A DNA stretch of 64,000 nucleotides, from positions 43,861 to 107,860 of IMG/VR virus record IMGVR_UViG_3300017786_000003; one strand, given 5' to 3'. The notes beneath the pieces were generated by a model that did not search any database, was not told the origin of the DNA, and saw only the letters and a list, made by a program, of their open reading frames with translations. This DNA is from a virus. This document shows positions 9,220 through 18,099 of this stretch, one piece after another; the stretch's first letter is position 1, and each line of letters opens with the position of its first letter. The position numbers and the translations under genes are program-made.

Positions 9220-9564
9220 TTATAAGTACAGTGCAGCTAATTTAATGTTAGCTTGTGCTGAACAAGTTATTTTTATGTTACCATCAACATCATTAAAAGC
9301 ATCAACTTCAAATGGTCCTAAGAAGCCAATTTCTCCTGCAGCTAAATTTAAAACTGCATTTTCTTTCTTTAATGTACCTAGTAAGGGATCTATAACTGTA
9401 GTAACTACCGGAACTACGGTAGCAGTAATAGCTCCACCACTTGTATTCTGCACCCAGAAAAATTCTTTTGATGTATTCTTAAGTTTATCACCACCTGCAG
9501 CTGGAGTAACCGTGGTAGGTTCTAAACCAGCTTGTGTTATTTGTTGTGCTGTTATTTGTGCCAT
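9220..9564 (-). CDS. Putative small virion structural/decoration protein
   Basis: 114-aa beta-rich ORF in the late operon. Confidence 0.65.
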   Translation of the reverse strand: MAQITAQQITQAGLEPTTVTPAAGGDKLKNTSKEFFWVQNTSGGAITATVVPVVTTVIDPLLGTLKKENAVLNLAAGEIGFLGPFEVDAFNDVDGNIKITCSAQANIKLAALYL

Positions 9565-9574
9565 GATTTAATTT

Positions 9575-9796
9575 TTAACTATTTCTATATCCATTTTTAA
9601 AAGCTGCTGACTGAACTGGTTCTGATGCTCTTGTGGACTTCATATCACACACAATACCGGCTTTAGCCAATCTTTGTCTTTTAGCAACTTTTTTTGCATT
9701 TCTCTTTTGTTGGGACTTCTGATATTGAGAAGTAGGGTTAAAGTACCCATTAGGTACATTACCATCTCCCAGCGGGAATGATATCTTCTTTGCCAT
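9575..9796 (-). CDS. Small basic protein
   Basis: K/R-rich, in operon. Confidence 0.7.
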   Translation of the reverse strand: MAKKISFPLGDGNVPNGYFNPTSQYQKSQQKRNAKKVAKRQRLAKAGIVCDMKSTRASEPVQSAAFKNGYRNS

Positions 9797-9801
9797 AATT
9801 T

Positions 9802-9885
9802 CTATTTATTAAGTAGATGTGATCCATCACAGATTCCATCAGGATTCTGAGTATTACCACATACACATTGAGTTCTATTTTTCAT
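9802..9885 (-). CDS. 27-aa CDGSH iron-sulfur micro-protein (not in ORF track)
   Basis: MKNRTQCVCGNTQNPDGICDGSHLLNK; fills the gap between ORFs at 9887 and 9796. Confidence 0.8.
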   Translation of the reverse strand: MKNRTQCVCGNTQNPDGICDGSHLLNK

Positions 9886-9886
9886 A

Positions 9887-10162
9887 TTATTTTTTCATTT
9901 TACCTAAAGTTAATGCTAACCTTGCACGTTGTGCAGTCTTACCACTACCTTTAGCTTTTTGTCTCAACCAAGACTTCTTAATAGTTCCATCAGCTTTCAT
10001 TGCTCCTGCTCTTTTAGCAGTTGCTTTTAAGGCTCCTGGCTTTTTAATTGCCCCCTTGATCCAGTTCTTACCAGATTTTTTTGCACCACCTTTTTTATAA
10101 GACACTACACTCTTAGGCATAGTTCCTTTTTTCTTAGCTGGCTTAATTTTTTTTGCTGGCAT
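9887..10162 (-). CDS. Small Lys-rich putative DNA-binding/core protein
   Basis: Very basic; YKKGG linker followed by NWIKGAIKKPGAL...RARLALTL module. Confidence 0.75.
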   Translation of the reverse strand: MPAKKIKPAKKKGTMPKSVVSYKKGGAKKSGKNWIKGAIKKPGALKATAKRAGAMKADGTIKKSWLRQKAKGSGKTAQRARLALTLGKMKK

Positions 10163-10167
10163 AATTA

Positions 10168-10581
10168 CTATTTTTTACTTCTTCTTCCTTGAGCACTTGA
10201 TCTGTTACCAGAATAAGCTCTTTTACCTGCAGCTCTTTTAGCTCCTTTACTTTCATTTCTTCTAGACTTCATAGATTGTTTTTTCTTACCTCTTCTCATT
10301 CCTAGAGATTCATCTAATCTAGAATTGTATCCTTGCTTTTTCTTCTTTTTAACTGCTCCTCCTTTTTTATAAACATCCATTACATCTCCTCCTTCTTGCA
10401 TTCCCATGAGACCTCCCATATCTGCAAATTTTCTTTGTTTATTCATTCTTTCTGGAGAGACAAATGGGTCTCCATCTCCGGTAGTCATACCCATTCTTGC
10501 GTACATTTTTTGACCACCCTTTTGTTTTTTCATAAGTTTATCTAACTTTTTACTTGCTTTATAACCTGATTGTGCTGGCAT
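10168..10581 (-). CDS. Basic protein with multiple xxGG linkers
   Basis: QKGG, DMGG, QEGG, KKGG; K/R-rich C-terminal module. Confidence 0.75.
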   Translation of the reverse strand: MPAQSGYKASKKLDKLMKKQKGGQKMYARMGMTTGDGDPFVSPERMNKQRKFADMGGLMGMQEGGDVMDVYKKGGAVKKKKKQGYNSRLDESLGMRRGKKKQSMKSRRNESKGAKRAAGKRAYSGNRSSAQGRRSKK

Positions 10582-10593
10582 GATTTCTATTTT

Positions 10594-11061
10594 TTATTTG
10601 TTATTACTAATTGACTTAAATTTTTCTGCCCCTCTGCTTCCAAAGTAGGCTACATAAACGGTAATGAGAAGTGACTTGAGTAAATCTACCCAGCCAGCAT
10701 CAATACCAAACTCTATGTCAAAACCATCTAACAAAATAAATATAACTAATGAAACAGTTAAAAATATTAATGTTAAAGGTCTTGTGTTCTTACTTAGATA
10801 TGAATCAGATTGCATATCCGCCTGCCATCTTTTGCTGACTTCTTGCATCTCAACCATATCCATCTCTAAAAGCTTTAATGCTTTTTCTTTATCTTCTGGT
10901 GGTAACACAGCAGGGTCTTCCTTCTCTATAAGAGATTTAACCATGCCAAGTACACCTGCATCTGGAAGTAAGTCTCCAGCTACGCCTAACAGACTAGGAA
11001 CTTTCTCAACAAGAAATTTTCCCACTCTGGTGTCTTTGAATTTTTTCTTTCCTTTGCTCAT
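10594..11061 (-). CDS. Holin (3TM/GTA-type holin family)
   Basis: RWQADMQSDSYLSKNTRP, two hydrophobic helices, YFGSRGAEK. Confidence 0.75.
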   Translation of the reverse strand: MSKGKKKFKDTRVGKFLVEKVPSLLGVAGDLLPDAGVLGMVKSLIEKEDPAVLPPEDKEKALKLLEMDMVEMQEVSKRWQADMQSDSYLSKNTRPLTLIFLTVSLVIFILLDGFDIEFGIDAGWVDLLKSLLITVYVAYFGSRGAEKFKSISNNK

Positions 11062-13524: not shown

Positions 13525-14502
13525 ATGAAAGACATCTTTAAACCTAGACTCAATATTCTACCCTATGAATACCCACAATTATTAGCATATAAAGATGCCA
13601 TTAGACATTCCTATTGGATTGATACAGAATTTAATTTTACTGAAGATATACAGGACTTTAAAGTGACTATTAATCCTAGAGAAAGAGATGTTATAAAAAA
13701 GACTATGTTAGCTATTGCACAAATAGAAGTTAATGTTAAAACTTTCTGGGCTGACATATATAAACGTATGCCTATTACAGAGATAGGAGATGTAGGAATG
13801 ACATTTGCTGAGTCAGAAGTAAGACATAAAGATGCTTATGCTAGACTGTTGAGAATCTTAGGTTTAGAAGAAGAATTTAAAAATGTTGTTGAGGTACCAG
13901 CAATAAAAGGAAGGCTTAAATATTTAAAAAAATATTTAGATGGTACAAGATCTAAAGACAACAAAATGTATACTAAATCTGTTTTACTATTCTCTTTATT
14001 TATAGAGCATGTTAGTTTGTTTAGCCAGTTCTTAATTATGATGAGCTTTAATAAAGAAAAGAATGTACTAAAGGGTATATCTAATGTTGTAGAAGCAACA
14101 AGCAAAGAAGAAGAAATACACGGTAACTTTGGAGCAGAGTTAATTAATATTATTAAAGAAGAAAACCCGGAATGGTTTGACAAAGACTTTGAAGATCTAA
14201 TACACTCAGCATGCAATAAAGCATATAAAGCAGAGTGTTGTATATTGGACTGGATATTTGAAAAAGGAGAACTAGACTTCTTACCAAAAGAAACTATAAA
14301 GAATTTTATCAAGAATAGATTCAATAATTCACTTGAAAAAATTGGGATGCCAACTTTATTTATTGTAGATTTGGATCTGTTAGAGTCTACAGAATGGTTT
14401 GACATTGAGGTTACTGCAACAAAAGAAGGAGACTTCTTCTACAAGAAAAGTGTTGACTATAATAAAAAGAGTAAAAGCATAACTGAAGATGACTTATTTT
14501 AA
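13525..14502 (+). CDS. nrdB: Ribonucleotide reductase class I beta subunit (class Id-like)
   Basis: Ferritin-like ligands QIEV, ESEVRH..AY, FIEH, EEEIH; C-terminal DFF...Y...DLF. Confidence 0.95.
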   Translation: MKDIFKPRLNILPYEYPQLLAYKDAIRHSYWIDTEFNFTEDIQDFKVTINPRERDVIKKTMLAIAQIEVNVKTFWADIYKRMPITEIGDVGMTFAESEVRHKDAYARLLRILGLEEEFKNVVEVPAIKGRLKYLKKYLDGTRSKDNKMYTKSVLLFSLFIEHVSLFSQFLIMMSFNKEKNVLKGISNVVEATSKEEEIHGNFGAELINIIKEENPEWFDKDFEDLIHSACNKAYKAECCILDWIFEKGELDFLPKETIKNFIKNRFNNSLEKIGMPTLFIVDLDLLESTEWFDIEVTATKEGDFFYKKSVDYNKKSKSITEDDLF

Positions 14503-14504
14503 TT

Positions 14505-16130
14505 ATGGAATATAAAAAATACTACTGGCTAAATGAAAATAGTAGAACCTTTTTATCTAGAGGTTATATAACAGAATCACCAGAACAAAGAATAAAAGAC
14601 ATAGCTAATAAAGCAGAGAAATATCTTCATATGCCTGGCTTTGCTGAAAAGTTTGAGAACTATATGTCTAAAGGATTTTACTCACTATCTACTCCTGTAT
14701 GGATAAACTTTGGTAAACCAAAAGGTTTGCCTATTAGTTGTTACGGATCCAATATAGATGATAACTTAAATAGTATACTTAATGCAGGACGTGAGATTGG
14801 AATGATGTCAAAATATGGTGGAGGTACAAGTTGCTTTTTAGGGAATATAAGACCTAGAGGATCAAAGATATCTACAGGAGGCTTAGCTGATGGACCAGTA
14901 CACTATGCTAGAATATATGATACAGTTGTAGATGTATGTAAACAATCTGAAGCAAGGCGTGGAGCCTGTGCAGCATATCTACCATTAGAGCATCCAGACA
15001 TAGATGAGTTCTTAGATATAGGTACTGAGGGAAATCCAATACAAAACTTACAGTATGGTATTACAGTTTCTGATGCTTGGTTGAGATCTATGAAAGCAGG
15101 TAGTAAAGATAAACGTAAGATATGGGCTAAAGTAATTCAAAGAAGATCTGAGTTTGGATATCCTTATATAATGTTCAAAGACAATTCTAATAAGAACACT
15201 CCATACAATGAGATAGGAATGGAAATCACAGCATCAAACTTATGTTCAGAAATCCAACTACCAACAGACACCTATAACTCCTTTGTGTGTTGTTTGGGTT
15301 CTATTAACTTACTACACTGGGATGAGATAATAAAGACTGATGCAATAGAAACGTATGTATTCTTTTTGAATGCTGTTATGGATGAGTTCATTAAGAAAGC
15401 GGAAGTAAAAGCTGGCCTTAAAAGAGCATATAACTTTGCTAGCAAACATAGAGCTATTGGTTTAGGTGTGTTAGGTTATCACAGTTTGTTTCAGTCAAAG
15501 CTAATAGAGTTTGAATCATTAGCTGCTAAACAACTAAACAATCATATATTTAAACATTTAAAAGAAGTATCAGATGAAGCATCAAGATGGTTATATGAAC
15601 ACAGGGGATATAGATCCCTACGAGAAGGCTATGCAAACACAACTCTTATGGCTATTGCTCCTACTAAATCAAGTTCATTTATCCACGGTGCTGTATCTAT
15701 GGGTATTGAGCCAATAAAATCTAACTACTTTATCAAAGATCTTGCTAAGTCTAAGACGGTGTATAAGAACCCATTCTTAGTAGAAGAGTTAGAAAAGTAT
15801 GGTCTTAATAATAAAAAGACATGGGATAGTATATTAAAGAAAGATGGATCTGTACAGCACTTAAACTTCCCAACAAAAGAAGTATTTAAATCATTCATTG
15901 AAATAAGTCCTAAAGAACTAGTACTACAAGCAGCACAAAGACAAAAGTATATTGATCAGTCACAGTCATTAAACTTAATGATTGACCCGTCTGTATCAGC
16001 TAAAGATATTAATAAGCTTTATTTATATGCACATGAAGAAGGAGTAAAAACACTATACTATCAGTTTAGTATAAGTTCTGCTCAAGACTTTGCTAGAAAC
16101 ATATTAGAGTGTGCAAGCTGTGAAGGATAA
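14505..16130 (+). CDS. nrdA: Ribonucleotide reductase class I alpha subunit (short, no ATP cone)
   Basis: PISC, SNLCSEI, AIAPT, KTLYY, C-terminal CASC. Confidence 0.95.
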   Translation: MEYKKYYWLNENSRTFLSRGYITESPEQRIKDIANKAEKYLHMPGFAEKFENYMSKGFYSLSTPVWINFGKPKGLPISCYGSNIDDNLNSILNAGREIGMMSKYGGGTSCFLGNIRPRGSKISTGGLADGPVHYARIYDTVVDVCKQSEARRGACAAYLPLEHPDIDEFLDIGTEGNPIQNLQYGITVSDAWLRSMKAGSKDKRKIWAKVIQRRSEFGYPYIMFKDNSNKNTPYNEIGMEITASNLCSEIQLPTDTYNSFVCCLGSINLLHWDEIIKTDAIETYVFFLNAVMDEFIKKAEVKAGLKRAYNFASKHRAIGLGVLGYHSLFQSKLIEFESLAAKQLNNHIFKHLKEVSDEASRWLYEHRGYRSLREGYANTTLMAIAPTKSSSFIHGAVSMGIEPIKSNYFIKDLAKSKTVYKNPFLVEELEKYGLNNKKTWDSILKKDGSVQHLNFPTKEVFKSFIEISPKELVLQAAQRQKYIDQSQSLNLMIDPSVSAKDINKLYLYAHEEGVKTLYYQFSISSAQDFARNILECASCEG

Positions 16131-17694: not shown

Positions 17695-18099
17695 TTAAAA
17701 TTGTGATTCTCTTTTGCAATCATCAATAGAAAGCTGCAACTCTTCTAGTGTCACTGGACATACAAGATCAAGCCCTGCTTTGAATGCAGCATACTTAAAT
17801 CCATCCTTATCAAATACAATGATTGTTGGAGCCATTCGTACTCTATACTTTTTCTTTGCTTTTAGGTTCTCTGATATATCCGCCCTATAGTATTTTACAC
17901 CTGTTAGTTTTCCCCAGTCCTTAAAAGAGTTATCGTCATTAAATTCTGCCCAAAACTCTACTACAACCAAAACATCTAAATCGTCAAATGCAGAATTACC
18001 TACTACAGACTTTTCAAAATCTTTATCCGTTAACCAATCTTGTCCATTAACTGTAGTACTAAACAGTAAAAAAAAGAAACATAATACTGCTCTTTTCAT
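17695..18099 (-). CDS. Exported thioredoxin-fold protein lacking CxxC
   Basis: Signal peptide ...VNG|QD; VVVEFWAEFN in place of WCxxC; MAPT cis-Pro loop. Confidence 0.75.
   Translation of the reverse strand: MKRAVLCFFFLLFSTTVNGQDWLTDKDFEKSVVGNSAFDDLDVLVVVEFWAEFNDDNSFKDWGKLTGVKYYRADISENLKAKKKYRVRMAPTIIVFDKDGFKYAAFKAGLDLVCPVTLEELQLSIDDCKRESQF

What the first reader, a model, noticed from the sequence alone, without database searches (positions are those of the whole stretch)
9802..9885. 27-aa stand-alone CDGSH [2Fe-2S] micro-protein
Seen: an unannotated ORF, MKNRTQCVCGNTQNPDGICDGSHLLNK, fitting exactly between two genes. Established: CxC..CDGSH supplies the 3Cys-1His ligands of NEET-type [2Fe-2S] clusters. 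It is essentially the bare motif, placed in a late operon. Inference: iron/redox manipulation of the host, or an iron-bearing virion component.
Basis: partly seen in the sequence, partly recalled or inferred. Interest (0 to 1): 0.7.

Follow-up and report, generated by a model that had tools for sequence, protein, structure and literature searches.

The report
Bare CDGSH-loop micro-gene in marine phage
A 27-codon gene in this marine phage is real and conserved, and encodes little more than the metal-binding loop of CDGSH iron-sulfur proteins. It belongs to a large, mostly uncalled family of such mini-proteins shared by marine flavobacteria and their phages, and which metal it binds and what it does are untested.

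Summary
The ORF is at 9802..9885 (-) exactly as described. It sits 1 nt after the upstream gene's stop codon and 5 nt before the downstream start.

**It is not a chance ORF.**
- Ten distinct versions occupy the same slot in related viral contigs found through a neighbouring gene.
- All ten keep C-x-C-G-x-T-x4-G-x-C-D-G-S-H. Seven of those ten conserved codons vary synonymously and none varies non-synonymously.
- The same motif occurs in at least 119 viral and at least 120 cellular contigs, mostly as 22-30 aa stand-alone genes.

**Relation to CDGSH proteins.**
- The loop is one residue longer than the canonical CDGSH motif.
- The same long-loop form fills one domain of two-domain proteins that pass Pfam zf-CDGSH.
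- The peptide lacks every other defining CISD element and scores 13.6 bits against a cut-off of 29.5. It is CDGSH-derived, not a NEET-fold member.

**Context.**
- In flavobacterial genomes the gene follows a YceI gene, with FMN-reductase, MarR and HxlR genes nearby.
- In phages it lies near a holin-like gene, here about 0.7 kb away.
- It is patchily present within this phage lineage, so it is an accessory gene and unlikely to be a core virion part.

Whether it binds [2Fe-2S] or zinc is open. This scan has met the same family before on other DNA.

The parts
9802..9885 (-). 27-codon micro-gene (stop codon included) encoding the CDGSH-like peptide
   Evidence: Syntenic conserved copies in L002-L005, L011, L021, L024, L032-L035 and L040-L045. 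Raw pN/pS 0.42, with synonymous-only variation at the conserved motif codons.
9817..9867 (-). Motif core C-x-C-G-x-T-x4-G-x-C-D-G-S-H. Putative ligands are Cys7, Cys9, Cys19 and His23.
   Evidence: One match in the window against 0 in 100 shuffles. Pfam zf-CDGSH profile positions 32-47, E 0.084. It is the only zf-CDGSH-like match in the whole 107.9-kb phage record, E 0.009.
9887..10162 (-). Upstream 91-aa lysine-rich protein gene. Its stop codon lies 1 nt before the micro-gene's ATG.
   Evidence: Matches phrog_20603, function unknown. This upstream neighbour differs between related loci.
9575..9796 (-). Downstream 73-aa gene. It is the constant right-hand neighbour of the slot, whether or not the micro-gene is present.
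   Evidence: No Pfam or PHROG match.
9220..9564 (-). 114-aa protein gene used as the synteny anchor
   Evidence: phrog_16194 'tail protein', E 4.7e-10. 47 related viral loci were found with it.
10594..11061 (-). Holin-like 155-aa membrane protein gene, about 0.7 kb upstream in the same gene run
   Evidence: phrog_3427 'holin', E 1.2e-17. Closest cultured relatives are the annotated holins of Nonlabens phages P12024L/S, 53% identity. The same family lies within 2.5 kb of the micro-gene in 58 of 119 viral loci.

Best explanation
This is a genuine, translated accessory micro-gene of a marine phage, probably one infecting Flavobacteriia. Its 27-residue product is a free-standing copy of the cluster-binding loop of CDGSH iron-sulfur domains, one residue longer than the canonical loop. 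Cys7, Cys9, Cys19 and His23 are the putative metal ligands. The non-ligand residues that shape the cradle in CISDs (Gly10, Thr12, Asp20, Gly21, Ser22) are retained. It belongs to a large, unnamed family of 22-35-residue peptides shared between marine Flavobacteriales, some other bacteria and their phages. Most likely (inferred, about even odds) it holds a solvent-exposed, labile [2Fe-2S] cluster. It would then act in the cytoplasm late in infection as a small redox- or iron-responsive module, functionally tied to the membrane and lysis gene set rather than built into the virion. Shown here: the gene is real, under amino-acid-level constraint, part of this family, and has these genomic associations. 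Inferred: the metal, the redox role and any link to lysis timing.
For: (1) Synteny-based and motif-blind: 47 loci were found through the 114-aa neighbour. Ten distinct micro-ORFs occupy the same slot and all carry the motif. Seven of the ten conserved codons vary synonymously and none non-synonymously, and raw pN/pS is 0.42.
(2) The motif occurs in at least 119 viral contigs and at least 120 cellular contigs. A profile search gives 267 clusters at E<=1e-3 among 1.84 billion representatives.
(3) Link to CDGSH: 29 of 64 members hit only zf-CDGSH, best E 7e-4, and only three members hit any other family, weakly (E 0.11 or worse). PDB 3TBM, a type 4 CISD, aligns with a single 1-residue gap. P0098, P0133 and P0124 pass the Pfam cut-off with two CDGSH stretches, one of which is the same 9-spacer 'G-x-CDGSH' form.
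(4) Redox-flavoured cellular context: a YceI gene lies directly upstream in 55 of 120 loci (median gap 29 nt). N-terminal fusions to YceI exist. FMN reductase, MarR, HxlR and rhodanese genes recur nearby.
(5) Phage context: a holin-like gene lies within 2.5 kb in 58 of 119 loci, in 7 clusters at 70% identity and on either side. An endolysin-like gene is present in 42 loci and small membrane proteins flank the micro-gene. In this window the holin-like gene is 0.7 kb upstream.
(6) Accessory status: the gene is patchy on the neighbour-gene tree, with 6 changes of which at least 2 are forced by well-supported branches, and absences are clean.
Against: The peptide scores 13.6 bits against the Pfam cut-off of 29.5. 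It lacks the N-strand, the P motif with its lid proline, and the dimeric beta-sandwich that every solved CISD uses around the cluster (PMC3174974). A cluster in it would be very exposed. The loop is one residue longer and the canonical Pro position is not kept. The AlphaFold2 model of a 33-aa member is only moderately confident (mean pLDDT 67.7) and shows no secondary structure. Small Cys3His peptides bind zinc readily, and the domain was first annotated as a zinc finger (PMC5859297). The holin and endolysin labels are similarity-based. Many of the viral loci are related to each other, so the counts are not independent. In this window two basic-protein genes separate the micro-gene from the holin-like gene, and no endolysin homologue is nearby.
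Confidence: 0.6

Rival explanations
1. The peptide is a zinc (or other single-ion) knuckle. The Cys3His set binds Zn2+ and the peptide acts as a small structural or adaptor module, for example binding a protein or nucleic acid. There is no iron-sulfur chemistry.
For: There is no protein scaffold to shield a cluster (PMC3174974). Flanking residues are lysine-rich. The module is fused to very different partners, as zinc knuckles often are: the C-terminus of an XkdF-like protease, ribosomal protein bS16, and Rho_N/SAP-like domains. JGI/IMG names the 30-aa members 'CDGSH-type Zn-finger protein'.
Against: Invariance extends to non-ligand CDGSH residues (Gly, Thr, Asp-Gly-Ser), which a generic zinc site would not need. 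The same variant fills a domain slot in Pfam-passing two-domain CDGSH proteins. The cellular context is redox-flavoured: YceI, FMN reductase, MarR and HxlR.
Confidence: 0.3
2. The peptide is an iron- or metal-bearing component of the virion. It would be packaged with the tail or the basic internal proteins encoded around it.
For: It is embedded between small basic proteins and tail or fibre genes in one gene run. In other phages the motif is fused to the C-terminus of an XkdF-like head-maturation protease.
Against: It is present in only about half of closely related loci, with clean absences and several gains or losses. Most family members are cellular genes in metabolic operons. In a second phage lineage it sits inside the lysis cassette, not among structural genes.
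Confidence: 0.05
3. It is not a protein-coding gene. It would be a chance ORF, a spacer, or a regulatory leader ORF whose peptide sequence does not matter.
For: It is very short, has no direct expression data, and lies below gene-caller length limits.
Against: The motif matches in 0 of 100 shuffles. Conservation is at the amino-acid level with synonymous codon variation. The same module appears in-frame within larger proteins and in hundreds of unrelated genomes. Only 5 nt separate it from the next gene, leaving no room for an attenuator.
Confidence: 0.02

Closest known systems
CDGSH iron-sulfur domains (CISD / NEET proteins; Pfam PF09360), especially the prokaryotic type 4 form (RsCISD, PDB 3TBM)
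   Same: Same ligand set and order (Cys, Cys, Cys, His). Same conserved non-ligand residues: Gly after Cys2, Ser/Thr at +3, and Asp-Gly-Ser/Thr before His. zf-CDGSH is the only recurrent Pfam hit. 3TBM aligns across the motif. The identical long-loop form occurs inside Pfam-passing two-domain CISDs.
   Different: The loop is one residue longer (9 residues, not 8, between Cys2 and Cys3), and the canonical Pro-hydrophobic pair is replaced by Gly-x. There is no N-strand, no P motif or lid proline, no beta-sandwich and no helix. The whole protein is 27 residues, against 53 or more for the smallest described CISD (53-residue type 3 PcCISD, PMC3174974). It scores below the Pfam cut-off. Cofactor unknown.
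Motif-only CDGSH-like micro-proteins of marine Flavobacteriales (unnamed; 30-aa members labelled 'CDGSH-type Zn-finger protein' by JGI/IMG)
   Same: Same length class, the same invariant 17-residue core and lysine-rich ends. The core of one Flavobacteriaceae MAG copy (L211) differs from the phage core at one position of 17.
   Different: The cellular copies usually read R-P-K-C-G-C-G and follow a YceI gene. The copies in this window's phage lineage read Q-C-x-C-G and sit between late genes downstream of a holin-like gene.
Retroviral-type CCHC zinc knuckles and other mini zinc-binding peptides
   Same: Comparable size, Cys/His ligands, basic flanks, and use both stand-alone and as an appended module.
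   Different: Different ligand order and spacing (C-x2-C-x4-H-x4-C against C-x-C-x9-C-x3-H). No sequence relationship was detected. This comparison rests on my own knowledge, not on a tool result.

Membership tests
CDGSH iron-sulfur domain (CISD; Pfam PF09360) | 17-residue motif Phi-C-x-C-x2-(S/T)-x3-P-Phi-C-D-G-(S/T/A)-H (PMC3174974, PMC5859297) | tested here: not met
   The three Cys, the His, the Thr and Asp-Gly-Ser are all present. However, the Cys2-Cys3 spacer is 9 residues rather than 8, the Pro-Phi pair before Cys3 is replaced by Gly-Ile, and Phi1 is Gln.
CDGSH iron-sulfur domain (CISD; Pfam PF09360) | Score at or above the Pfam gathering cut-off (29.5 bits) | tested here: not met
   13.6 bits, E 0.084, and 13.8 bits in the whole-genome scan. 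None of the 64 family members reaches the cut-off, although 29 hit at E<=1.
CDGSH iron-sulfur domain (CISD; Pfam PF09360) | N-strand, P motif with lid proline, and a dimeric or pseudo-dimeric beta-sandwich around the cluster module (PMC3174974) | tested here: not met
   Only 6 residues precede Cys1 and 4 follow His. The AlphaFold2 model of a 33-aa member has no secondary-structure elements.
CDGSH iron-sulfur domain (CISD; Pfam PF09360) | The long-loop (9-spacer, G-x-CDGSH) form is used within bona fide CISDs, which would indicate homology of the loop | tested here: met
   P0098, P0133 and P0124 pass zf-CDGSH at 46-53 bits with two stretches each. Each pairs a canonical motif with the long-loop form.
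CDGSH iron-sulfur domain (CISD; Pfam PF09360) | Binds a [2Fe-2S] cluster through 3 Cys and 1 His | not testable with these tools
   Needs reconstitution and spectroscopy.
Motif-only CDGSH-like micro-proteins (unnamed family of bacteria and phages) | Stand-alone ORF of about 22-35 aa with invariant C-x-C-G-x-T-x4-G-x-C-D-G-(S/T)-H | tested here: met
   The profile built from the family recovers 267 clusters.
Motif-only CDGSH-like micro-proteins (unnamed family of bacteria and phages) | In phages: located near a phrog_3427 holin-like gene or the lysis cassette | tested here: met
   The holin-like gene at 10594..11061 lies 0.7 kb upstream. The association holds in 58 of 119 viral loci. The loci are not independent and no endolysin homologue is nearby in this window.
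CCHC zinc knuckle | C-x2-C-x4-H-x4-C spacing | tested here: not met
   The sequence reads C-x-C-x9-C-x3-H. No zinc-knuckle family appears in the Pfam scans.

The most novel reading that the evidence does not exclude
These 22-30-residue peptides are the smallest free-standing natural iron-sulfur proteins. Each would be a bare, labile [2Fe-2S] loop that marine flavobacteria use beside YceI and FMN reductase in quinone or redox stress. Phages would have captured it as a redox- or iron-sensitive input to the timing of holin-triggered lysis.
Probability: 0.1. Interest if true: 0.85.

Novelty: new variant of a known kind. Interest (0 to 1): 0.55.

Why it matters
If the peptide really holds a [2Fe-2S] cluster, it would be far smaller than any described CDGSH protein. 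It would then give a natural minimal model for 3Cys-1His cluster binding that can be made by peptide synthesis.

The family is abundant in marine Flavobacteriales and their phages, yet mostly invisible to gene callers because the ORFs are shorter than 90 nt. It is therefore a concrete case of systematically missed micro-genes in ocean metagenomes.

Two recurring placements give testable hypotheses about function. In cells it sits next to YceI and FMN-reductase genes. In phages it sits next to holin and endolysin genes. These suggest a role in redox or iron sensing at the membrane, or in lysis timing.

If it turns out to be a plain zinc knuckle, the finding is a modest annotation gain.

Tried and rejected
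- **Fold prediction and fold search.** The AlphaFold2 model of a 33-aa family member (alignment A1) had mean pLDDT 67.7 and no secondary structure. Foldseek against the PDB found nothing at E<=10. VIA-align against 48,161 chains found nothing at Z>=2. A loop this small cannot be placed by fold search.
- **Complex prediction.** Two copies plus two [2Fe-2S] clusters gave 'no answer' (score 0.06, mark 0.42). This is evidence neither for nor against.
- **Profile against PDB sequences.** The best CDGSH hit was 3TBM at E 0.78, which is not significant on its own. An unrelated 12-residue match to 1GH9 scored similarly.
- **tblastn of the 27-mer against 50,697 phage records.** No match even at E<=10. 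The query is too short for BLAST statistics. This does not show absence from cultured phages.
- **Cultured phages with the closest holins.** Nonlabens phage P12024L and a Vibrio phage have no such motif near the holin.
- **Curated family models.** NCBIfam has no model. PHROGs has no family for the peptide.
- **Fusion to a neighbour by frameshift or readthrough.** Rejected, because the frame offset to the downstream gene differs between loci.
- **Leader peptide or attenuator.** Rejected, because the gap to the next gene is only 5 nt and the module also occurs inside larger proteins.
- **Literature.** Searches for CDGSH with phage, virus, YceI or micro-protein terms found nothing relevant in the held library.

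Full report
**1. The observation**

The minus strand at 9802..9885 carries an ATG-started ORF of 27 codons plus stop, reading MKNRTQCVCGNTQNPDGICDGSHLLNK.
- It lies 1 nt downstream of the stop of a 91-aa lysine-rich gene (9887..10162).
- Its stop lies 5 nt upstream of the ATG of a 73-aa gene (9575..9796).
- The surrounding run of minus-strand genes includes a 135-aa membrane protein, a holin-like 155-aa protein (10594..11061; phrog_3427, E 1.2e-17), two small basic proteins, a 114-aa protein (phrog_16194 'tail protein') and a 1218-aa fibre-like protein.
- The window is part of a 107.9-kb IMG/VR virus record estimated 94% complete, with about 32% G+C.
- The back-translated motif occurs once in the window and in none of 100 shuffles.

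**2. It is a real gene**

I searched viral contigs with the neighbouring 114-aa protein, not with the motif, and obtained 47 loci.
- In about half of them an ORF of 26-28 codons occupies exactly the same slot, immediately upstream of the homologue of the 73-aa gene. There are ten distinct sequences counting the window.
- All ten keep C-x-C-G-x-T-x4-G-x-C-D-G-S-H, while the other positions vary.
- Seven of these ten conserved codons show synonymous variants (for example TGT/TGC, GGT/GGA/GGG/GGC, ACT/ACA/ACG, TCA/TCC/TCT, CAT/CAC). None shows a non-synonymous change. Raw pooled pN/pS is 0.42 with pS near saturation.
- The remaining loci lack the ORF cleanly, with the two flanking genes abutting.
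- On a tree of the 114-aa protein, presence needs about six changes, at least two of them forced by well-supported branches.

The gene is therefore accessory in this lineage and is intact wherever it is present.

**3. It belongs to a large family**

Most are 22-28-codon stand-alone ORFs.
- Fused forms include the C-terminus of XkdF-like serine proteases (PF14550, E 1.7e-12), the N-terminus of about 109-aa proteins, and positions after Rho_N/SAP-like segments.
Most are marine Flavobacteriales such as Polaribacter and Cryomorphaceae. Others are Paenibacillus (25-aa genes) and Opitutaceae (two motifs in tandem).
- A profile of 64 members (A1) found 267 clusters at E<=1e-3 among 1.84 billion representatives, nearly all short proteins.
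- NCBIfam has no model. JGI/IMG names some 30-aa members 'CDGSH-type Zn-finger protein'.
- I found no paper describing such motif-only proteins or viral CDGSH genes in the held library.
- Earlier agents of this scan reported the same family on other genomes. I re-derived their main claims independently.

**4. Relation to CDGSH domains**

The defining motif is Phi-C-x-C-x2-(S/T)-x3-P-Phi-C-D-G-(S/T/A)-H. All solved CISDs add an N-strand, a P motif whose proline lids the cluster, and a dimeric or pseudo-dimeric beta-sandwich (PMC3174974; motif also in PMC5859297).

What the phage peptide keeps:
- the three Cys and the His;
- the Gly after Cys2 and the Thr;
- the Asp-Gly-Ser before His.

What differs:
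- it has nine residues, not eight, between Cys2 and Cys3;
- Gly-x replaces the Pro-Phi pair.

Sequence-search results:
- Pfam zf-CDGSH is the only hit, at 13.6 bits against a cut-off of 29.5.
- Across the family, 29 of 64 members hit zf-CDGSH (best E 7e-4), only three members hit any other family, weakly (E 0.11 or worse), and none reaches the cut-off.
- It is the only zf-CDGSH-like match in the whole phage.
- The strongest link is that three proteins found by the profile (P0098, P0133, P0124) pass zf-CDGSH with two domains. One domain carries a canonical motif and the other carries exactly this long-loop form.

The loop is thus a natural variant used within true CISDs. The 27-residue peptide lacks every scaffold element and is not a member of the fold family. 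A 33-aa member modelled with AlphaFold2 is a loop without secondary structure (mean pLDDT 67.7). The fold searches and the complex prediction were uninformative.

**5. Context and likely function**

In cellular genomes:
- The micro-gene follows a YceI-family gene (PF04264) on the same strand at a median gap of 29 nt in 55 of 120 loci.
- MarR (17 loci), NADPH-dependent FMN reductase (15), HxlR (14) and rhodanese (16) genes recur nearby.
- Some Flavobacteriales fuse the motif, through a membrane segment, to the N-terminus of YceI (P0093 and its cluster).
- This is a quinone, redox or electrophile-stress type of neighbourhood. The functional reading is my inference.

In viral contigs:
- A phrog_3427 holin-like gene lies within 2.5 kb in 58 of 119 loci. 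These form seven clusters at 70% identity, and the holin-like gene sits on either side of the micro-gene.
- In a second lineage the order is membrane protein, micro-gene, membrane protein, endolysin-like peptidase, holin-like gene.
- In this window the holin-like gene is 0.7 kb upstream, with two basic-protein genes in between and no endolysin homologue nearby.
- The closest cultured holins belong to Nonlabens (Flavobacteriaceae) phages, which themselves lack the micro-gene.

Together with the low G+C and the flavobacterial dominance of the cellular copies, this suggests a flavobacterial host, but does not prove it.

**6. Verdict**

The best reading is an accessory phage copy of a CDGSH-derived Cys3His metal-binding micro-protein.
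- A labile [2Fe-2S] cluster is somewhat more likely than zinc. The reasons are the conserved non-ligand CDGSH residues, the occurrence of the variant in true CISDs, and the redox-type cellular context.
- A role as a virion component is unlikely given the patchy distribution.
- Any role in lysis timing is speculation supported only by gene neighbourhood.
- It is a new variant of a known kind. Its interest lies mainly in the size of the overlooked family and in how easily the central question can be tested with a synthetic peptide.

Noticed in passing
L069:1914-3677:+ (also L083, L138, L142): XkdF-like phage serine protease proteins of 440-588 aa (PF14550; phrog head-maturation protease hits) end in the same CDGSH-like module as a C-terminal tail.
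   Followed up: partly
L226 and L258 (Coraliomargaritaceae and related Verrucomicrobiota MAGs): Proteins that start like ribosomal protein bS16 (judged by eye from the N-terminal sequence, no family search run) carry a long C-terminal extension containing the CDGSH-like module. Opitutaceae encode 54-63-aa proteins with two modules in tandem.
   Followed up: no
L087:430-555:+, L095, L101, L155; L062, L072, L073, L147, L148: Some viral micro-proteins extend the module with short conserved tails. One is an acidic tail ending in D-V-P-F-A-D-K-F, which from memory recalls the SSB C-terminal tip. Another ends in L-P-F-P-Y-L. Both may be short docking motifs.
   Followed up: no
window 10168-10581 (-) and L050:8459-8686:+: Small, very basic, probably disordered proteins share a segment of the type G-Y-N-x-R-L-D-E-S-x-G-M ... 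K-x-Q-S-M-K-x-R-R-x-E-S-K across different phage lineages that also carry the micro-gene. Function unknown.
   Followed up: no
window 13525-16130 (+): Class I ribonucleotide reductase small and large subunit genes (PF00268, PF02867) lie on the opposite strand in the middle of the late, tail-fibre gene run. A thioredoxin-like gene is at 17695-18099 (-).
   Followed up: no
window 19671-58004 (-): A run of very large ORFs (1906, 4565, 1119, 1053, 1035, 925 and 2118 aa) fills more than half of the window. Only the 1906-aa ORF was scanned, against Pfam alone, and it had no hit; the others were not scanned.
   Followed up: no
P0001 (94 aa) and P0092 (106 aa), from the representative library: Proteins made only of three tandem motif-only modules exist. 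One has an N-terminal targeting-peptide-like leader and long-loop modules. The other has canonical 8-spacer modules and passes zf-CDGSH at 70.6 bits.
   Followed up: partly
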